A stretch of DNA of 64,000 nucleotides from positions 1-64,000 of the IMG/VR virus record IMGVR_UViG_2724679237_000005. One strand, 5' to 3'. The stretch is from a virus (taxonomy: Duplodnaviria; Heunggongvirae; Uroviricota; Caudoviricetes). Below, one piece after another: positions 24,001-30,000 of the stretch. The stretch's first letter is position 1, and each line of letters starts with the position of its first letter. The position numbers are program-made.

Positions 24001-27000
24001 TTGTCGAACTGATAACCTGCGTTGTCCTCAGACCACTTTATGAAGTCGCAGCAAATCGTGTTCGTATACCCTTTTCCACGCAGGATATCAGCGAAGAGAG
24101 GTGCGATTTCTATGCAGGTAACATCTTCCAGATCGGCGTTAATATAGGCCAGAAGATCCCCACGTCCGGCTTGAGGCTCCAGCAGCTTCTCACCAGGCTT
24201 CAATTCAGTGGCTCTGGCAACGTACTCAGCAATCAAGCGTGGGGTAGGGTAGAACTGGTGTGATTTTGTATCCGGTATTAAACCGGTAGCCACAATCGTA
24301 TTTAGCGTATGGCCGATCTCATACGGGAACTGCCAGTGCTTTTTCTCCTGCACGCCGCCAATGAAGCTCAGTGTGCGCTCAAGCTCTTCCACCTGCGACT
24401 TCTGGAGAGCTGAATCAGAGAAGTACCATACGCCTTTGTCTTTGCTCAATCGCCCGTCACGAAGCGCAGTGCGAACCGGCACGGAGATCGTCTTCTGGAT
24501 TAAACCGAACTGCTTTGGTGCCCGTGTTTTTGGCGCAGTTCGGCATGGCGCGGAGATTGCTGCAGGCATACTGTAAGCCAGCACCTCATTCAACTTCCAG
24601 GCCACGTCAGGATGTATTTCAAAGTGAACGTTGCCGTTCTTGAACATCTTCACGCGCATCAGATTTCCATCGACGTTCATCCAGTCACCGGTCTGGCAGT
24701 CGTTTGCCCGATACGCAGCTGATAGCACCTCAGCAGTGCGGTTGATGGTAATAAATTCTTTGTGCGCGAAGAAATGAAGCAAGACACGCAGATCGTCGAT
24801 GTAGTCCTCTTTGCGATAGTTCACGCTAACGCTGTCCCGCCAGAAATCAGAAATGCAGTCAGCGATTATCAGACGCTCGCTGAAACCGTTTGTCTTATTT
24901 GTCTTGTGCGCAGGACTCAGCGCCTTAAACAAGCCATACACGCGCTCAGAGAGATATTTGTGCCTGTCATTCAGCAAATTAAGCATCGTGGGTATGACCG
25001 TTTCTGCTTTGAACTCCGGTACACCAACGAACTCTTTAACCTTCATCTGGTAGCCGGTTCTGTCAGTTTTGATGACTTCCTGTTTGCCCTCTATAAACTG
25101 CTCGCGCCACTCATCTCGACGGGAAGCTGGCATGATCAGCAAAACGTTAGTCATGTCCGTGACCTTCCTCCAGTACTCGGCCCAAATATTCTGTTTCACC
25201 CATTCCAGATCGACTTTATCCAACCAACCTCGATTTAAACGCGAGCGATCTTCATCTGGTCGATGGTTTAGTCTCAGCAGGCGATTAATCATGTTGTGGC
25301 GTTCGTCGCCATAAACGAAGTCGTGTACCTGATACATGAAGGCGATCTCTTTCTCGCACTCGGCCACGATTTCGTGGATAACATTCATTTCCTGACGATA
25401 GTCGATAGCCGTGTTTGAGCTGGCATCGTCGATGATGGAAAGGGCTGTATTCATAATTACACCATTAAATAATTTGTTTTCTTATTGGTGTAATTATCAC
25501 AAACTTGAAAAGGCATAAAAGCTGCATTCATAGGCGTTACAGCAGATTTAAGGCGTAAAAATGGGGGCTTTCGCCCCCTGTCGACTGGTGCAGTATTAGA
25601 GTGCGTATTGCGTTTTGTGCGGCTGCTTATTCAAGTCATGGCGATGCGTGAGCTCCCGCATCATGTCTTCAAGGCGACTCTTTGTGTCGTCGAGCTGGTC
25701 GGCCATTGCACCTAAAAGCTGGCGAACGGCCATCGGATCGTCGCTGTTTAGTGATGGCATTTTATAACCTGCTTTAGAAGACATAAGGTTAATTGCAGAC
25801 ATCAACATCGTTAGAGAGGATTTAAGCCCGGCAATTTCACGATCTTTGCTGGCAATAATCGTCTCACTTTTGTTACCGTCATGAGATCCTTGAGTCTCGC
25901 TCACCATATCCAAAGTCGCTTGCAACTTATCAGCTCTCTCTTTTTCAGCAAGATAATGAACACCGAAATGATGTGCTAAAGCTACAATCTGAGTTGGCTC
26001 TTCAAAGGTGGACTCAAAATTAAGTGCTGTAACCACTCTCTCAAATATGGAAACGTCTTCTATTCCTCGAAGAATGGCTAACATTTTGACCAGTTCATTA
26101 GCATCCATTTCTTCGAATAAGGCGTTTTGTTCATCAGCTATCGCTTTGCATTTCTTGCACATGTGCTTTTCCTAATGCTTAAACAAGTTGTTTTCTTATT
26201 GGCTTTATTGTGATGTGGCATAAAAGGGGAGCAAGCTAAACGTAAAGGTGCAAACTCTCTATTTCGGTCAACGAAACACAAGGACCATTTGGCCCTTGTC
26301 ATTAACACTTTGCTTTACGAACTAACGGATAAGCGAAGTAGATCGCCAAACCAATGAGGACGCCATCAGAAATGACAGACATCATCTTTCCCGTAAAATC
26401 CACCAACACCGCCATCACCAGAAGAGCAATGACGATCACAAGCCGGAATCTCTCAAGCATTAGAGATAAGCATCCAGTGACAACTGAAGCGCCTGGGCGA
26501 TCTTTTTCAGTGCCTGCTCTTCTTGTTCACCAATGCCGTCCTGATCGGCAATATCAAGGCACAGACACAGAACATCGACCGCCTCTGGAGTACCCGCAAT
26601 ATCAGACAGCTCACGAATAGCCTGTGCATTAGCAGAACGAGGGGACGCTTCGTAACGAGCACGGATATTGGCGCTCATTTGGGCAATTTCACCAGCAAAC
26701 GGAGAAAACGCAGGCAGAGCTGCAATTGTCTTCTCAAGAATGGCAATTTCTTTTGCGTCACATGTGCCGTCGGCATAGGAGATCATGTACGCGCCCCACA
26801 CGGTGGCCTCAACCGCATCACGGTTCTCCATTTTTTTGACTTCGATAACAGCTTTACGAGTTTTCTTTTTGAAGAAACCTAACATGTGTTTTCCTTTTAT
26901 TATTTGTCAAAACAAGTTGTTTTCTAATTACATAAATTGCTTACGCAGAGATGGTCAATGCATATGCACTAACAGCCGTCAGAAATAACCAAGTACCGAA

Positions 27001-30000
27001 CCAACTGGAAAAACAAAAATCCCAACTACACGAGCCAAGGTCATGCCAGCCTGAAACTGGAGATCGCCAGAGCAAACAAGTTTTATAATGTTCGATACCC
27101 AACCGGCGGCCATGAGGGCCAGAATTGCCAGCCAAATTTTTCCAAAATGATTTGAAAACCAGTTCATACAACCGCCTTAGTCACAGCATGATCCTGAGTA
27201 ACTGGATGAACTTGAGGTATCGCATCCACCGCCATCCCATCCAGAGTGACAGGACGCTCCACTGGAGTGGTGGTAATTGTCGTCGACGAAGGTGTGGTGA
27301 TGGATGAATCCGGCATCAAAAGGCTCTGACCGGCTGGAACGGCTACCGTCGCCAGTGAAACTATAATGAGAACGTAGGCCATTGGTTTCAGCCTCTTTCT
27401 TTGAAAATTTTCCATCCGAACGGTCCTTGTTGTTTTTCTCCTTCACTAAAGGCCGTGCATTTTTCGCTTCACATGAAGAACTGGAGGTTACAATCGCCCC
27501 CACGTTCGCAACAACTGACGCTTGCTTATCTAAACGTGCCTTCAGCACCAGAACGGTAGTTTCCAATTCATCAAGACGTGACAGAAGGCGACCGCTAAAT
27601 AATTCGGCCAAAATTTGACGTAAAGAACGAGGGCGTTTAGTTGCAGGAGTTAAAAAAAATTGACGTGCCATATGGACTCCATCCAGTGTCAGAAAGAGTT
27701 GCGGCTGGCGATTGCCAGCCGCCTTTCTCGTTCCATCCTGGAACTGTGTCTTACCGACACATTGTCATCCTGACGCCGATAAGATACATGATTTAAAATG
27801 ATAGGTAAACACTTACTTACTACTTGTTATAAACAAAACCAATATCTTTCTTGTGAGGCATATCTGCTGCGGAAAAAGCTGCGATCTTCGCGAGTCGATC
27901 ACATATTTCATTTTCACGATGCCCGGCGTGGCCTTTAACCCACTTCCAGCGAACATTATGTCGACTTGCGGCCTCATCCAGACGCTTCCACAGATCAACA
28001 TTCTTTACCGGTTTTTTGTCAGAAGTCATCCATCCATTGCGTTTCCACCATTTCATCCACAGTGTCATGCCGTTTTTCAGATACTGGCTATCAGAGTGCA
28101 AAATAACGTTGCATGGATATTTCAAACGCTCCAGCCCGATAAGTGCCCCCATCATCTCCATGCGGTTATTGGTGGTGCTATGAAAACCATCTGAGAACTC
28201 GCGTTCCTCTCCACGATACTGAAGAACGATACCGTAACCGCCCGGGCCACCCGGATTTTTAAGGCAAGAGCCATCACTGAAGATTTTCACGGTTTTAAGC
28301 TGGGGATTGAACTCTACGACAGGCGTTGTGGGATTGGTGCGGGGAGAATTTTTGTTTTTGGCTTTTTTGCGAGTTTTTGCTTGCGATCGGGCTGGTGTCT
28401 TCGTCGTCATATAAACTCCTGAATCAAGCGCCGCGCCGATTTTTTCCTCGCGCGTGCGCACACGCGTGCGTGTTAATAATTATTAAAATAAACAAATTAC
28501 TTCCCAGAACAGGTTTTTATAAACCTGAACTGAACGAACGAAGTGAGTGAAGTTCACCTCGAACGAAGTGAGAGGTTGTCTTTTCAGGTAATACTCTCCC
28601 AGGGAGGTGAGTATAAAATTCCTCACCAACCTGGTCGTTTCATAACCTGAAAAGCTATGGTCTAAGTCTACTGCCAGCTTAGACTTGGGAAGTTATGGAT
28701 GACAGCACCCCAGAACCGAGATCTTCCCACACTTTATGAAGGGGAGTACTGGATTCAACCTCTCGAAACCCCCCAGACTCGACAATCATAAAGTGACCCT
28801 TGTCTCTGCTCACTTTGGTTCCCCCTTCCCCGACACCTAAACGGCACCAGTTCTACGCTGGTAGTGAGCTTTTTTAAACCTGACGCCAGTGACGCTTACC
28901 CCCACCCATCAGGTCGAGTCTCCAGTCTACGACTGGAAACTATCAGATCTTAGCACTTACAATTCATCTTATGAATAGTTTGTACTTATCTATCATTGCG
29001 ATTGATTATTTTCTCGACCATGTAGTTGAACATTCAAGGCAAACACCTCGTTGATCAACTCACCTAAAAGCTGTTCAACAAGTTCGCGATGCTCCCCAAG
29101 ATGCAAGCACTTAATTGCCCATTCGTACAAGTTGAAAGCCTGCTCGCGATCTTTCATCATTTCACGGGCTTGGGCCAGAAAATCGCTCTCTACGAGCGCA
29201 ACGACATTAGTCGGGTATGACATGTTAGTTTTCCTTAAAGTGGTTCATAAAATCGATTTTAAAGCGTCTGGGAAGGGGTTCTAGTGGATTCTGTAGTGAT
29301 GTTCAGGTCTGGAGTCTCTGATACAAAACAGCCTGCTTCTGTATATTAATAATTAATATGTAGTTATTTATATATACAGAAGCAGGCTAATTACAGACGC
29401 CAGAACAAACTAAGCAGCCTTCTTTGATGGTCTTTTTTTCCTGATCACATTCGCAGGATCATACCCTCCCAGACTTTTCATGACGTCCAAAGGGATCTTG
29501 CTTATAGAGTGCCCAGCGTCCTGACAGAATCCTCGAAAAACAACGAGCATACTGCCACCGGGGTTGATGTTTACTTCTACCTGACCCAAATTGACGTCAG
29601 GCTCGACAAACGCTACGCGGCCACCAGACAGAATAATCGTCTCATTCGCACACTCTGTTGCACGCTCATACCACTTTGTATCGAGGGATTGAGGAATTAG
29701 CATCACTGTTGTAACTCCGCGAGCCTGCTCACGTATAGCCGCATCAATCCAGGGGGAGATTTTGGAGTAGGGTGGATTGAGGAAGGCAATTGTACCTGGC
29801 TGTCCCCATTCAGATTTCAAAGCATCACGCTCAACGCCTATGAAATTAGGCAGCTTTGCATTGTCCTTGTTGCAGGCAACGTCAACATCAAATGTCACTC
29901 CAAGATAACGTTGAATGGCAGAAAACAGCCAGTCAGGTGTTCTCCAGAGGTCACGAAGAGAGTTGTCGCGCTTTCGCTGTTTGATTTTTTCGGCTGCAAT

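What the first reader, a model, noticed from the sequence alone, without database searches (positions are those of the whole stretch)
26979..27671. Embedded-gene arrangement: secreted Ser/Thr/Pro-rich ORF inside another ORF, coupled to a 2-TM membrane protein
ORF 27177-27671 has a good RBS and a coiled-coil-like N-terminal half. Its second half overlaps, in another frame, a complete gene (27164-27382) with its own RBS and a signal-peptide-like N-terminus, which is in turn ATGA-coupled to a small 2-TM protein (26979-27167). The nesting recalls Rz/Rz1 spanins but without a lipobox or an N-terminal TM segment, so it may be a different membrane-associated module or a programmed frameshift product.
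Basis: seen in the sequence. Interest (0 to 1): 0.5.

Follow-up and report, generated by a model that had tools for sequence, protein, structure and literature searches.

The report
Two proteins from one phage-plasmid gene
In an SSU5-like phage-plasmid of E. coli, the last 250 bases of a gene of unknown function also encode, in a second reading frame, a small exported protein that annotation pipelines almost always miss; comparison of about 120 relatives shows that selection keeps both readings, but it is not a spanin and its function is still unknown.

Summary
ORF A (27671-27177, 164 aa) carries ORF B in its +1 frame. B is 83 aa and starts at 27415, not 27382. B's stop overlaps the ATG of the 2-TM gene C (27167-26979).

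- **Conservation:** 119 of 124 related loci keep both frames open, with B's stop exactly 13 nt after A's.
- **Constraint, from substitution classes on 79 unique sequences:**
  - B's first 34 codons (charged N-terminus plus hydrophobic helix): only B is constrained.
  - The Ser/Thr/Pro linker: neither frame is constrained.
  - The last ~27 codons: both are constrained (A tail C-x-SGWD...CCD; B LDGM..D.IP).
- **A's frame:** it would be open by chance in only 3-14% of codon shuffles per lineage. No nonsense mutation was seen against about 7 expected.

This is therefore a genuine dual-coding (overprinted) pair with segregated constraint, and B is a missed gene.

It is not a spanin: there is no lipobox, A has no TM segment, and the holin-endolysin-Rz-Rz1 cassette lies 52 kb away. 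It is not a frameshift product either. Function is unknown. The genes are silent in a lysogen, so they probably act during lytic growth.

In passing I found a conserved, covarying structured leader upstream of A, and an ultra-conserved ~450-nt non-coding stretch upstream of rnhA.

The parts
27781..27809 (-). Promoter-like TTTACC (27809-27804), 17-nt spacer, TATCTT (27786-27781), directly upstream of the leader
   Evidence: Read from the sequence. Both hexamers are conserved in all nine lineages aligned. It falls below the consensus scanner's threshold (8 of 12). Its role as a promoter is inferred, not shown.
27672..27776 (-). Structured 5' leader of the A/B-C unit. A closing stem encloses three hairpins: H1 ~27761-27745, H2 27744-27730 (GUUCC-AGGAU-GGAAC), H3 27722-27701 followed by AACUCUUUCU. 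Two invariant CAGGAUG motifs sit in hairpin loops.
   Evidence: Covariance model R1 finds one copy per genome (117.5 bits). 98.9% of cells are paired against 28-46% when partners are slid. H1 has 5 of 6 pairs with compensatory changes. No Rfam family matches.
27177..27671 (-). ORF A, 164 aa: basic N-terminus, one long helix (residues 17-67), then a predicted disordered region ending in the conserved tail C-x-SGW(D/N)...(C/S)CD
   Evidence: Annotated as hypothetical in all records. Matches phrog_10411. The head shows A-frame codon periodicity and dN/dS of about 0.55. AlphaFold2 gives pLDDT 80-94 for the helix and about 40 for residues 67-164.
27424..27428 (-). Shine-Dalgarno (AAGGA) of ORF B, 8 nt before its ATG, inside ORF A
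   Evidence: A GGA/GGAG-containing purine stretch lies 7-10 nt upstream of B's ATG in all nine lineages, although the surrounding bases differ.
27164..27415 (-). ORF B, 83 aa, in the +1 frame of A: charged n-region (MENFQRKRLKP), hydrophobic helix (MAYVLIIVSLATVAV), conserved PAGQSLLMPD, Ser/Thr/Pro linker, conserved LDGM..D.IP C-terminal part. Predicted Sec signal peptide or signal anchor.
   Evidence: Present in 119 of 124 loci. A-synonymous sites in its first 34 codons evolve at 0.27x the neutral rate. Periodicity switches to frame B there. Matches phrog_15659 over residues 12-83. AlphaFold2 places a helix at residues 3-24 and leaves the rest unstructured. Not annotated in any of the 10 related records inspected.
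27314..27415 (-). Overlap part 1 (B codons 1-34 / A residues ~86-120): only B is constrained
   Evidence: changes synonymous in B but not in A run at 1.04x neutral (CI 0.79-1.29). Changes synonymous in A but not in B run at 0.27x (CI 0.13-0.45); steps per site at B codon positions 3/1/2 are 1.65/0.88/0.41, p = 1e-6.
27257..27313 (-). Overlap part 2: Ser/Thr/Pro-rich linker of B, which reads as the His/Asp-rich linker of A. It is indel-rich and neither frame is constrained at the amino-acid level.
   Evidence: both substitution classes run at about 1.05x neutral. All indels between lineages are multiples of 3.
27177..27256 (-). Overlap part 3: A tail (C-x-SGWD...CCD, then stop) and B C-terminal part (LDGM..D.IP...VTKAVV); both frames are constrained. 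It includes the invariant 13-mer TCTGGATGGGATG (27245-27233).
   Evidence: B-synonymous/A-changing substitutions run at 0.42x neutral (CI 0.21-0.69). A-synonymous/B-changing substitutions run at 0.61x (CI 0.37-0.90). The 13-mer is identical in 53 of 56 unique sequences, and three have A for G at one position, which changes A's Asp to Asn and is silent in B. RNAalifold finds no conserved RNA fold here.
26979..27167 (-). ORF C, 62 aa, two hydrophobic segments. Its ATG overlaps B's stop (ATGA). A's stop codon (TAA/TGA) lies inside C's Shine-Dalgarno (T[AG]AGG), 10 nt upstream.
   Evidence: Shows purifying selection (nonsynonymous 1.10 against synonymous 3.02 steps per site). Matches phrog_6006. 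Stand-alone homologues occur in Aeromonas, Vibrio and Octadecabacter phages. Absent in lineage L080 and truncated in L006-type plasmids.

Best explanation
This is a genuine dual-coding (overprinted) gene pair with spatially segregated constraint.

**How it is probably expressed.** One mRNA probably starts at a conserved promoter-like site and carries a structured leader. It is read in two frames.
- Ribosomes starting at ATG 27671 make A. A is a cytoplasmic protein with a basic N-terminus, one ~50-residue helix, a free-evolving disordered linker and a short conserved Cys/Ser/Gly/Asp tail (C-x-SGWD...CCD).
- Ribosomes starting at the internal SD plus ATG 27415, in the +1 frame, make B. B is an 83-aa pre-protein whose charged n-region and hydrophobic helix direct it to or through the inner membrane. 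That leaves a proline/threonine-rich, mostly disordered ~55-residue part in the periplasm.
- B's stop overlaps C's start (ATGA), and A's stop lies in C's Shine-Dalgarno. The 2-TM protein C is therefore made by translational coupling.

**How the two frames coexist.** The important part of each protein lies over the unimportant part of the other. B's signal/anchor lies over A's linker. Only the last ~27 codons carry constraint in both frames.

**Function.** The module is a lytic-cycle unit, silent in the lysogen. It most likely acts at the cell envelope (B plus C), with A as a cytoplasmic partner or regulator.

**Shown:** ORF maintenance, frame-specific constraint and conserved start signals.
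**Inferred:** translation of both frames, export of B, coupling to C, and any function.
For: 1. **Both frames are kept.** 119 of 124 loci keep both frames, with B's stop 13 nt after A's. These loci span at least 9 lineages down to ~41-50% identity in A, including L080, which lacks C.
2. **Codon periodicity switches** from frame A in the A-only part (steps per site at positions 1/2/3 = 1.29/0.89/2.00) to frame B in B's first 34 codons (B positions 3/1/2 = 1.65/0.88/0.41).
3. **Substitution classes on 79 unique sequences**, relative to the synonymous rate of A's head:
   - part 1: B-synonymous 1.04x, A-synonymous 0.27x;
   - part 2: 1.05x and 1.07x;
   - part 3: 0.42x (CI 0.21-0.69) and 0.61x (CI 0.37-0.90).
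4. **A's frame is open beyond chance.** Given B's protein it is open in 3-14% of codon re-draws per lineage. No nonsense mutation in A's overlapped part was seen against 7.3 expected (Poisson P = 7e-4).
5. **B's start signals are conserved.** The SD and ATG of B are present in every lineage, and B's n-region is more conserved than the A residues it overlaps.
6. **Reciprocal single-site evidence** in the 13-mer TCTGGATGGGATG. All three A-synonymous sites and two of the three B-synonymous sites are invariant. The third varies G/A in 3 of 56 sequences, giving Asp to Asn in A.
7. **Distant A homologues** (P0043, P0050) keep the C-x-SGW(D/N)...CD tail and the overlapping B.
8. **AlphaFold2 predicts disorder** for the whole overlapped part of A and for B after its N-terminal helix. 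This is the pattern described for overprinted viral genes (PMC8227390).
9. **No conserved RNA fold** in part 3 could explain the constraint instead.
Against: - There is no direct evidence of translation for either frame, and no proteomic or ribosome-profiling data were found.
- The evidence that A's tail matters as a protein rests on ~25 codons. The confidence intervals are wide, and part 3 shows no significant codon periodicity of its own (p = 0.2).
- A nucleotide-level element could mimic dual constraint. The invariant 13-mer contains a GGAUGG motif like those in the leader.
- Given A's tail composition, B's frame would be open by chance in 1.5-70% of re-draws. B's openness alone is therefore weak evidence.
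- Rates come from Fitch parsimony on neighbour-joining trees of recombining sequences, not from a codon-model likelihood.
- About 4% of loci carry frameshifts that fuse A's head to B's C-terminal part. The module is therefore dispensable in some hosts.
Confidence: 0.7

Rival explanations
1. Only B is functional in the overlap. A is really a ~85-120-residue helical protein whose reading frame runs on through B by accident or for a non-protein reason. One such reason is that ribosomes translating A keep the mRNA open, or terminate next to C's Shine-Dalgarno, and so help C's translation. The apparent constraint on A's tail would then be nucleotide-level.
For: - A's residues ~86-140 evolve neutrally at the amino-acid level (parts 1 and 2).
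- Part 3 has no A-type codon periodicity.
- A's stop codon is embedded in C's SD.
- The whole overlapped part of A is predicted disordered.
- The invariant 13-mer could be an RNA or DNA motif.
Against: - B-synonymous sites in part 3 evolve at 0.42x neutral (CI 0.21-0.69), against 1.04x in part 1.
- A's frame is kept open in all lineages despite a 3-14% chance expectation and ~7 expected nonsense events.
- Lineage L080 has lost gene C and its SD but keeps A's tail and its stop at the same place.
- No conserved RNA structure is seen in part 3.
- Selection for an open frame alone would not conserve Cys, Trp and the CCD end.
Confidence: 0.2
2. Only A is a gene. B is a chance open frame that persists because A's Ser/Gly/His/Asp/Cys-rich tail rarely creates +1 stops.
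For: - Given A's tail protein, the +1 frame is stop-free in up to 70% of codon re-draws.
- RefSeq and most depositors annotate only A and C.
Against: - A-synonymous sites in B's first 34 codons evolve at 0.27x neutral, with clean B-frame periodicity (p = 1e-6).
- B's ATG, SD, charged n-region and hydrophobic core are conserved in all lineages, while the overlapped A residues vary freely.
- B's stop always overlaps C's start.
- In L008 and L080 the chance of an open +1 frame is only 9.5% and 1.5%.
Confidence: 0.04
3. The two frames are joined by programmed ribosomal frameshifting, giving an A-head::B-tail or a B-head::A-tail fusion as the real product.
For: Database proteins of 168 aa exist that are A's head fused to B's C-terminal part (P0013, P0014, P0017, P0020, P0022). 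Loci L062, L077, L085 and L134 encode such fusions.
Against: - These fusions arise from 1-nt deletions or small indels in the DNA at several different places (homopolymer runs such as TTTT and AAAAA), not from a shared site.
- No slippery heptamer is conserved. The only recurrent one sits at B codons 2-4 and is absent from three lineages.
- B has its own conserved start.
- Both stops are conserved.
Confidence: 0.02
4. A and B are an unusual embedded two-component spanin (Rz/Rz1-like) and C is a holin-like partner.
For: - The geometry matches: a small exported, proline-rich protein in the +1 frame of a coiled-coil protein.
- A small 2-TM protein follows.
Against: - A has no TM segment.
- B has no lipobox and, in most lineages, no Cys at all.
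- Cyrano has an annotated holin, endolysin, Rz and Rz1 at 26.7-28.2 kb, 52 kb from this locus.
- SSU5 spanins are already catalogued, with the o-spanin in the Chi family (PMC6139136).
- The locus sits among DNA-metabolism genes.
- C homologues in other phages lie in early or replication regions.
Confidence: 0.01

Closest known systems
Rz/Rz1 embedded two-component spanins of lambdoid phages
   Same: A small exported, proline-rich protein is encoded entirely within the +1 frame of a larger protein with a long helix. Both are made from one mRNA by independent initiation.
   Different: - A has no N-terminal transmembrane domain.
- B has no lipobox or lipoylated Cys.
- The locus is not in the lysis cassette, which lies 52 kb away and has its own Rz/Rz1.
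- B extends 13 nt past A and is coupled to a third gene.
Overprinted viral gene pairs evolving under the 'segregated' model (e.g. HIV-1 tat/rev; reviewed in PMC8227390)
   Same: - Same-strand overlap.
- Both frames are under purifying selection.
- The constrained residues of one protein lie over unconstrained residues of the other.
- The overlapped parts are predicted disordered.
   Different: - The host is a 108-kb dsDNA phage-plasmid with no obvious pressure on genome size.
- One product is an exported protein.
- The last ~27 codons are constrained in both frames rather than segregated.
PhiX174 D/E (lysis protein E in the +1 frame of scaffold gene D)
   Same: A small protein whose functional part is an N-terminal hydrophobic helix is embedded in the +1 frame of another gene.
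   Different: - PhiX174 has no holin-endolysin system and E is its only lysis function; this phage has a full lysis cassette.
- B also has a conserved C-terminal part and conserved coupling to C.
- No similarity in sequence.
P1 tciA-tciB (TerB-like protein plus DUF3927 membrane protein) cluster
   Same: In the window and in many relatives, A/B-C is followed directly by tciA/tciB homologues (26885-26302). Both units pair soluble proteins with very small membrane proteins.
   Different: - The association is not fixed. SSU5 has an antirepressor there instead.
- C shows no similarity to TciB.
- tblastn of B against the phage collection hit only SSU5-like phages and no P1 record.

Membership tests
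Two-component spanin (Rz/Rz1) | i-spanin: N-terminal transmembrane domain followed by a periplasmic coiled-coil domain | tested here: not met
   A starts MARQFFLTPATKRPRSLRQ..., which is basic and hydrophilic. It has no hydrophobic stretch. AlphaFold2 gives one helix at residues 17-67 and disorder afterwards.
Two-component spanin (Rz/Rz1) | o-spanin: lipoprotein signal peptide with a lipobox and an invariant Cys | tested here: not met
   B of the window and of most lineages contains no Cys. pKPHS1-type B has Cys residues, but not in a lipobox and not conserved.
Two-component spanin (Rz/Rz1) | Located in the lysis cassette next to holin and endolysin | tested here: not met
   In Cyrano, holin, endolysin, Rz and Rz1 are annotated at 26739-28157. 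The A/B locus is at 79800-80492, among RNase H, methylase and exonuclease genes.
Two-component spanin (Rz/Rz1) | Embedded architecture: the small gene lies in the +1 frame of the large one | tested here: met
   B is in frame A+1. However, B runs 13 nt beyond A's stop.
Dual-coding (overprinted) same-strand gene pair | Both ORFs maintained in diverged homologues | tested here: met
   119 of 124 loci, at least 9 lineages.
Dual-coding (overprinted) same-strand gene pair | Purifying selection detectable in each frame independently of the other | tested here: met
   B: A-synonymous sites at 0.27x neutral in part 1. A: B-synonymous sites at 0.42x neutral in part 3. Neither confidence interval includes 1. 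The evidence for A is weaker because the segment is short.
Dual-coding (overprinted) same-strand gene pair | Independent translation start signals for the internal frame | tested here: met
   ATG plus an SD-like GGA/GGAG 7-10 nt upstream in all nine lineages.
Dual-coding (overprinted) same-strand gene pair | Both proteins actually produced | not testable with these tools
   No proteomic or ribosome-profiling data were found. RNA-seq of an LF82 lysogen shows the locus at background level.
Programmed ribosomal frameshift product | A conserved slippery site, with or without a stimulator, at the frame junction | tested here: not met
   No X XXY YYZ heptamer is conserved across lineages. The natural fusions come from DNA indels at different positions.
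Programmed ribosomal frameshift product | The second frame lacks its own initiation signals | tested here: not met
   B has a conserved SD and ATG.
Sec-type signal peptide / signal anchor (for B) | Positively charged n-region, hydrophobic h-region of ~12-20 residues, c-region with small residues at -3/-1 | tested here: inconclusive
   The n-region has four positive charges (three Lys/Arg residues after Gln5 plus Lys10). The h-region MAYVLIIVSLATVAV keeps its hydrophobic character in all lineages. Possible cleavage sites are VPA|GQ, IPS|TQ and SSA|TP. No signal-peptide predictor was available, so cleavage against anchoring cannot be decided.
Known protein families (Pfam, NCBIfam, PADLOC, PDB) | A significant profile match for A, B or C | tested here: not met
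   Nothing above threshold in Pfam, NCBIfam, PADLOC or PDB sequence profiles. Only PHROGs of unknown function matched. The RefSeq label 'BRCT domain-containing protein' on one copy of A has no support here.

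The most novel reading that the evidence does not exclude
A, B and C form a previously undescribed lytic-cycle envelope device specific to SSU5-like phage-plasmids. A cytoplasmic helical protein with a metal- or partner-binding Cys-rich tail (A) and an exported peptide (B) are produced in fixed relation from the same DNA. Both are coupled to a 2-TM protein (C). The whole unit is controlled through a structured leader that presents CsrA-type GGA hairpins. The overlap would then be a means of co-regulating a cytoplasm-periplasm pair, for example for superinfection exclusion, control of lysis timing or envelope remodelling. 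It would not be an accident of overprinting.
Probability: 0.12. Interest if true: 0.7.

Novelty: new member of a known kind. Interest (0 to 1): 0.45.

Why it matters
- **A missed gene in common plasmids.** SSU5/pHCM2/pKPHS1-like phage-plasmids are widespread in clinical Enterobacterales. The locus is in 211 of 5,426 complete E. coli genomes and in 681 PLSDB plasmids of Klebsiella, Escherichia, Enterobacter, Salmonella, Citrobacter and Cronobacter. Current annotation lists A and C and omits B, so a conserved exported protein is missing from essentially all of these records.
- **A clean example of dual coding.** Long same-strand dual-coding regions with demonstrable selection on both frames are rare in large dsDNA phages outside the spanins. 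This one shows how two proteins share DNA by placing the constrained part of one over the disordered linker of the other.
- **A test case.** It can be used to benchmark gene finders and overlapping-gene selection methods.
- **Directly testable.** Single-base changes that hit only one frame are available.

Tried and rejected
- **Spanin reading:** rejected on the lipobox, TM and location tests.
- **Programmed frameshift:** rejected.
- **RNA structure as the cause of constraint in 27256-27177:** RNAalifold gave -6.5 kcal/mol with a covariation term that penalises the fold.
- **Remote homology for A, B and C:**
  - Pfam, NCBIfam, PADLOC and PDB profiles gave nothing.
  - An exhaustive HMM search with an A profile gave only 20 hits. 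Those with convincing scores were all from this family.
  - AlphaFold2 models are a single helix plus disorder, so fold searches were not worth running.
- **C as a paralogue of TciB (DUF3927):** no similarity.
- **Protein-based metagenome scan with a very diverse A alignment:** It was replaced by a scan with the leader DNA pattern.
- **Literature on overlapping genes in SSU5 or on tciA/tciB:** nothing relevant found.
- **First, smaller data set (53 sequences):** it suggested that A was more constrained than B in part 3. With 79 sequences both are constrained and their order is not resolved.
- **Which frame is ancestral:** could not be decided, because A and B always occur together.

Full report
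**Where the window comes from.** The region 26400-28500 is 95-98.5% identical to about 110-kb E. coli plasmids and to the phages Cyrano (OV696614), CMS-2020a and PhiR41_1. These are SSU5-like phage-plasmids. All features of the finding are on the minus strand. The local gene order, read on the minus strand, is:
- rnhA (28461-27820);
- ORF A (27671-27177);
- ORF B (27415-27164, frame A+1);
- ORF C (27167-26979);
- a TerB/TciA homologue (26885-26460);
- a DUF3927/TciB homologue (26460-26302).

In the 10 related records inspected, depositors and RefSeq annotate A and C and not B. B does appear as a predicted protein in a few Cronobacter assemblies and as PHROG 15659.

**Checking the observation.** The three ORFs, the ATGA junction between B and C, the GGAG upstream of A and the AAGGA upstream of B are all present. 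The one correction concerns B's start, which is ATG 27415 rather than 27382.
- The N-terminal MENFQRKRLKP is conserved in every lineage.
- It supplies the positive charges expected before a signal or anchor helix.
- The distant lineage L080 has no Met at the downstream position.

**Conservation of both frames.** I collected relatives from four sources: annotated plasmids and phages, GTDB genomes and IMG/VR, contigs encoding remote A homologues found by an exhaustive HMM search, and a metagenome scan with the leader pattern.
- Of 124 assessable loci, 119 keep both frames open with B's stop exactly 13 nt after A's.
- They span at least nine lineages: E. coli, L043, SSU5/Enterobacter/Kluyvera, pYLPI6a, Cronobacter, L060, Klebsiella pKPHS1, L082 and L080. 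Identity in A falls to ~41-50%.
- All indels between lineages are multiples of three.
- The five exceptions are four small indels that fuse A's head to B's C-terminal part and one rearrangement.
- The database fusion proteins of 168 aa arise from 1-nt deletions in different homopolymer runs. They are mutations or sequencing errors, not a shared frameshift site.

**Is an open second frame surprising?** I held one protein fixed and re-drew its codons from the window's own codon usage.
- The A frame stays open across B in only 3-14% of trials per lineage.
- The B frame stays open across A's tail in 1.5-70% of trials.

Openness is therefore informative for A and weak for B. As a further test I took the stop-creating sites in A's overlapped part and the observed class-specific rates. 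About 7.3 nonsense events were expected on the 53-sequence tree, and none was seen (P = 7e-4).

**Frame-specific selection.** I mapped substitutions by Fitch parsimony on neighbour-joining trees.

Steps per site at A codon positions 1/2/3, which correspond to B positions 3/1/2:

| Segment | A pos. 1 (B pos. 3) | A pos. 2 (B pos. 1) | A pos. 3 (B pos. 2) | Reading |
|---|---|---|---|---|
| A-only part | 1.29 | 0.89 | 2.00 | A-frame periodicity |
| B's first 34 codons | 1.65 | 0.88 | 0.41 | B-frame periodicity, p = 1e-6 |

I then classed each substitution by its effect in both frames, using 79 unique sequences. The synonymous rate of A's head (3.23 steps per site) served as the neutral yardstick. 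The independent synonymous rate of gene C was 3.02 on the smaller set.

| Overlap segment | Silent in B, changes A | Silent in A, changes B | Reading |
|---|---|---|---|
| Part 1 (27415-27314) | 1.04x (CI 0.79-1.29) | 0.27x (CI 0.13-0.45) | Only B constrained |
| Part 2 (27313-27257, the Ser/Thr/Pro linker) | 1.05x | 1.07x | Neither constrained |
| Part 3 (27256-27177) | 0.42x (CI 0.21-0.69) | 0.61x (CI 0.37-0.90) | Both constrained |

A 13-mer in part 3, TCTGGATGGGATG (27245-27233), reads S-G-W-D in A and L-D-G-M in B. It is identical in 53 of 56 unique sequences. All three A-synonymous sites and two of the three B-synonymous sites in it are invariant. The third varies G/A in three sequences, which changes A's Asp to Asn and is silent in B. 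RNAalifold finds no conserved fold in part 3 that could explain this. Lineage L080 has lost gene C and its Shine-Dalgarno, yet it keeps the tail and A's stop in place.

**What the proteins look like.**
- **A:** AlphaFold2 predicts one confident helix (residues 17-67) and disorder from residue 67 to the end. Only the last ~24 residues are conserved, as C-x-SGW(D/N)-x2-G...(C/S)CD. This holds even in the remote homologues P0043 and P0050.
- **B:** it has a helix at residues 3-24 and no confident structure afterwards. Its features are a charged n-region, a hydrophobic core that keeps its character while its residues change, a strongly conserved PAGQSLL(M/I)PD, a variable Thr/Ser/Pro linker, and a conserved LDGM..D.IP segment. 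A's His-rich stretch is simply B's Thr-rich stretch read one base earlier (ACC ACC read as CAC CAC; read from the sequence).
- **C:** it is under purifying selection. It has stand-alone homologues in Aeromonas, Vibrio and Octadecabacter phages, in early or replication regions and without A/B.

No profile library or PDB search gives a function for A, B or C. The A family is confined to SSU5-like elements.

**How it most likely works.** B initiates internally and independently, using its own conserved SD and ATG. B's TGA overlaps C's ATG, and A's stop lies inside C's Shine-Dalgarno (T[AG]AGG, 10 nt upstream). C is therefore set up for translational coupling to either upstream frame.

The constraint map matches the 'segregated' model of overlapping genes, with disorder relieving the conflict (PMC8227390). 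Only the last ~27 codons are doubly constrained.

In RNA-seq of the LF82 lysogen, A (CYRAN_83), C (CYRAN_84) and TciA/B sit at the same background level as the capsid and terminase genes. The module therefore belongs to the lytic programme and is not a lysogenic-conversion gene. Export of B, the coupling to C and any envelope function are inferences.

**Comparison with known systems.** The Rz/Rz1 resemblance is geometric only.
- A has no TM domain and B has no lipobox.
- The family's holin-endolysin-Rz-Rz1 cassette lies 52 kb away in Cyrano.
- SSU5 spanins are already catalogued (PMC6139136).

Programmed frameshifting is excluded as far as sequence analysis can exclude it. The best description is a new member of the class of overprinted viral gene pairs. 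Its unusual points are the host (a large dsDNA phage-plasmid), the length of the overlap (~250 nt), and the fact that the embedded product is an exported protein coupled to a membrane protein.

**Limits.**
- No translation data were available.
- The selection estimates use parsimony on recombining sequences; L067 and several database proteins are recombinants.
- The evidence for A's tail rests on a short segment.
- I put 0.9 on B being a real gene, about 0.7 on both frames being functional, and about 0.2 on A's overlapped part being a passenger.

**Things seen in passing.**
- *Leader upstream of A.* The 105 nt upstream of A (27776-27672) form a conserved leader with three hairpins inside a closing stem. 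A covariance model finds exactly one copy per genome. 98.9% of cells are paired, against 28-46% for slid controls. Hairpin H1 has compensatory changes in 5 of 6 pairs. Two invariant CAGGAUG motifs are presented in hairpin loops, and a third GGA lies in A's SD. This resembles CsrA binding sites (weak CsrB hit).
- *Non-coding stretch upstream of rnhA.* About 450 nt (~28920-28440) are 88-94% identical across lineages whose flanking genes are far more diverged. The stretch folds with z = -4.2 and matches no Rfam family. It contains the annotated 44-aa CYRAN_81, one of the few Cyrano loci strongly transcribed in lysogeny.

Noticed in passing
window 27776-27672 (minus strand); promoter-like hexamers at 27809-27804 and 27786-27781: There is a conserved structured leader between rnhA and ORF A. 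A closing stem encloses three hairpins, and H3 (27722-27701) is followed by a U-rich run, so it looks like a terminator or attenuator. There is one copy per genome. H1 has compensatory changes in 5 of 6 pairs. Two invariant CAGGAUG motifs sit in hairpin loops and a GGA lies in A's SD, a pattern that resembles CsrA binding sites. No Rfam family matches.
   Followed up: partly
window ~28920-28440 (minus strand), between the 76-aa ORF (29223-28993) and rnhA: About 450 nt with no convincing ORF are 88-94% identical in nucleotide sequence across lineages whose neighbouring genes are only ~50-67% identical. Most columns are invariant in 69 unique sequences. The RNA fold has z = -4.2 and there is no Rfam match. 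The stretch contains the annotated 44-aa CYRAN_81 (28813-28679), which is about 16-fold above background in LF82 lysogen RNA-seq. It is a candidate large non-coding RNA, or a DNA element such as an origin. A 25-mer from it occurs only in SSU5-like contigs of IMG/VR.
   Followed up: partly
window 27722-27701 and the same hairpin in L008/L009, L004/L013, L010/L049: The loop of the perfect-palindrome hairpin H3 occurs in both orientations in closely related elements (ACATT against AATGT; CTTGG against CCAAG). The loop has therefore been inverted repeatedly between the arms of the inverted repeat.
   Followed up: no
P0013, P0014, P0017, P0020, P0022, P0047, P0048, P0051; loci L062, L077, L085, L134: There are recurrent natural or assembly variants in which a 1-nt deletion or small indel fuses A's head to B's C-terminal part (168-aa 'proteins'). 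The deletions occur at several different sites, often in homopolymer runs. P0013 is seen on 5 contigs, including isolates, so at least one of these variants is probably a real loss-of-function allele.
   Followed up: partly
window 26979-27167 (ORF C); L086 1399-1584, L087 2950-3156, L088 2992-3174: The 2-TM protein C has stand-alone homologues (39-43% identity) in unrelated Aeromonas, Vibrio and Octadecabacter phages. They lie in early or replication regions or between structural genes, without A/B. C is therefore a mobile small membrane-protein family of unknown function (phrog_6006).
   Followed up: partly
L006, L045-L048, L064 (Klebsiella/Enterobacter plasmids); L011; L140: Gene C is truncated after ~5-25 codons by a rearrangement that brings in other genes, for example an antisense 'ATP-binding protein' in L006. 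In SSU5 the tciA/tciB pair is replaced by an antirepressor, and L080 lacks C altogether. The genes downstream of A/B are therefore a variable region, and A/B with its leader is the constant unit.
   Followed up: partly
NZ_CP117002.1 (L002 3831-4325) and NZ_JBTZOT010000003.1: RefSeq names this copy of ORF A 'BRCT domain-containing protein'. No Pfam or NCBIfam match supports that name here.
   Followed up: yes
window 27245-27233 (minus strand): The 13-mer UCUGGAUGGGAUG inside the double-coding tail resembles the sequence around A's Shine-Dalgarno (CUGGAUGGAG, 27685-27676) and the GGAUGG of leader hairpin H2. It is identical in 53 of 56 unique sequences, and three have A for G at one position. 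It could be a further protein- or ribosome-binding RNA motif, in addition to coding in two frames.
   Followed up: no
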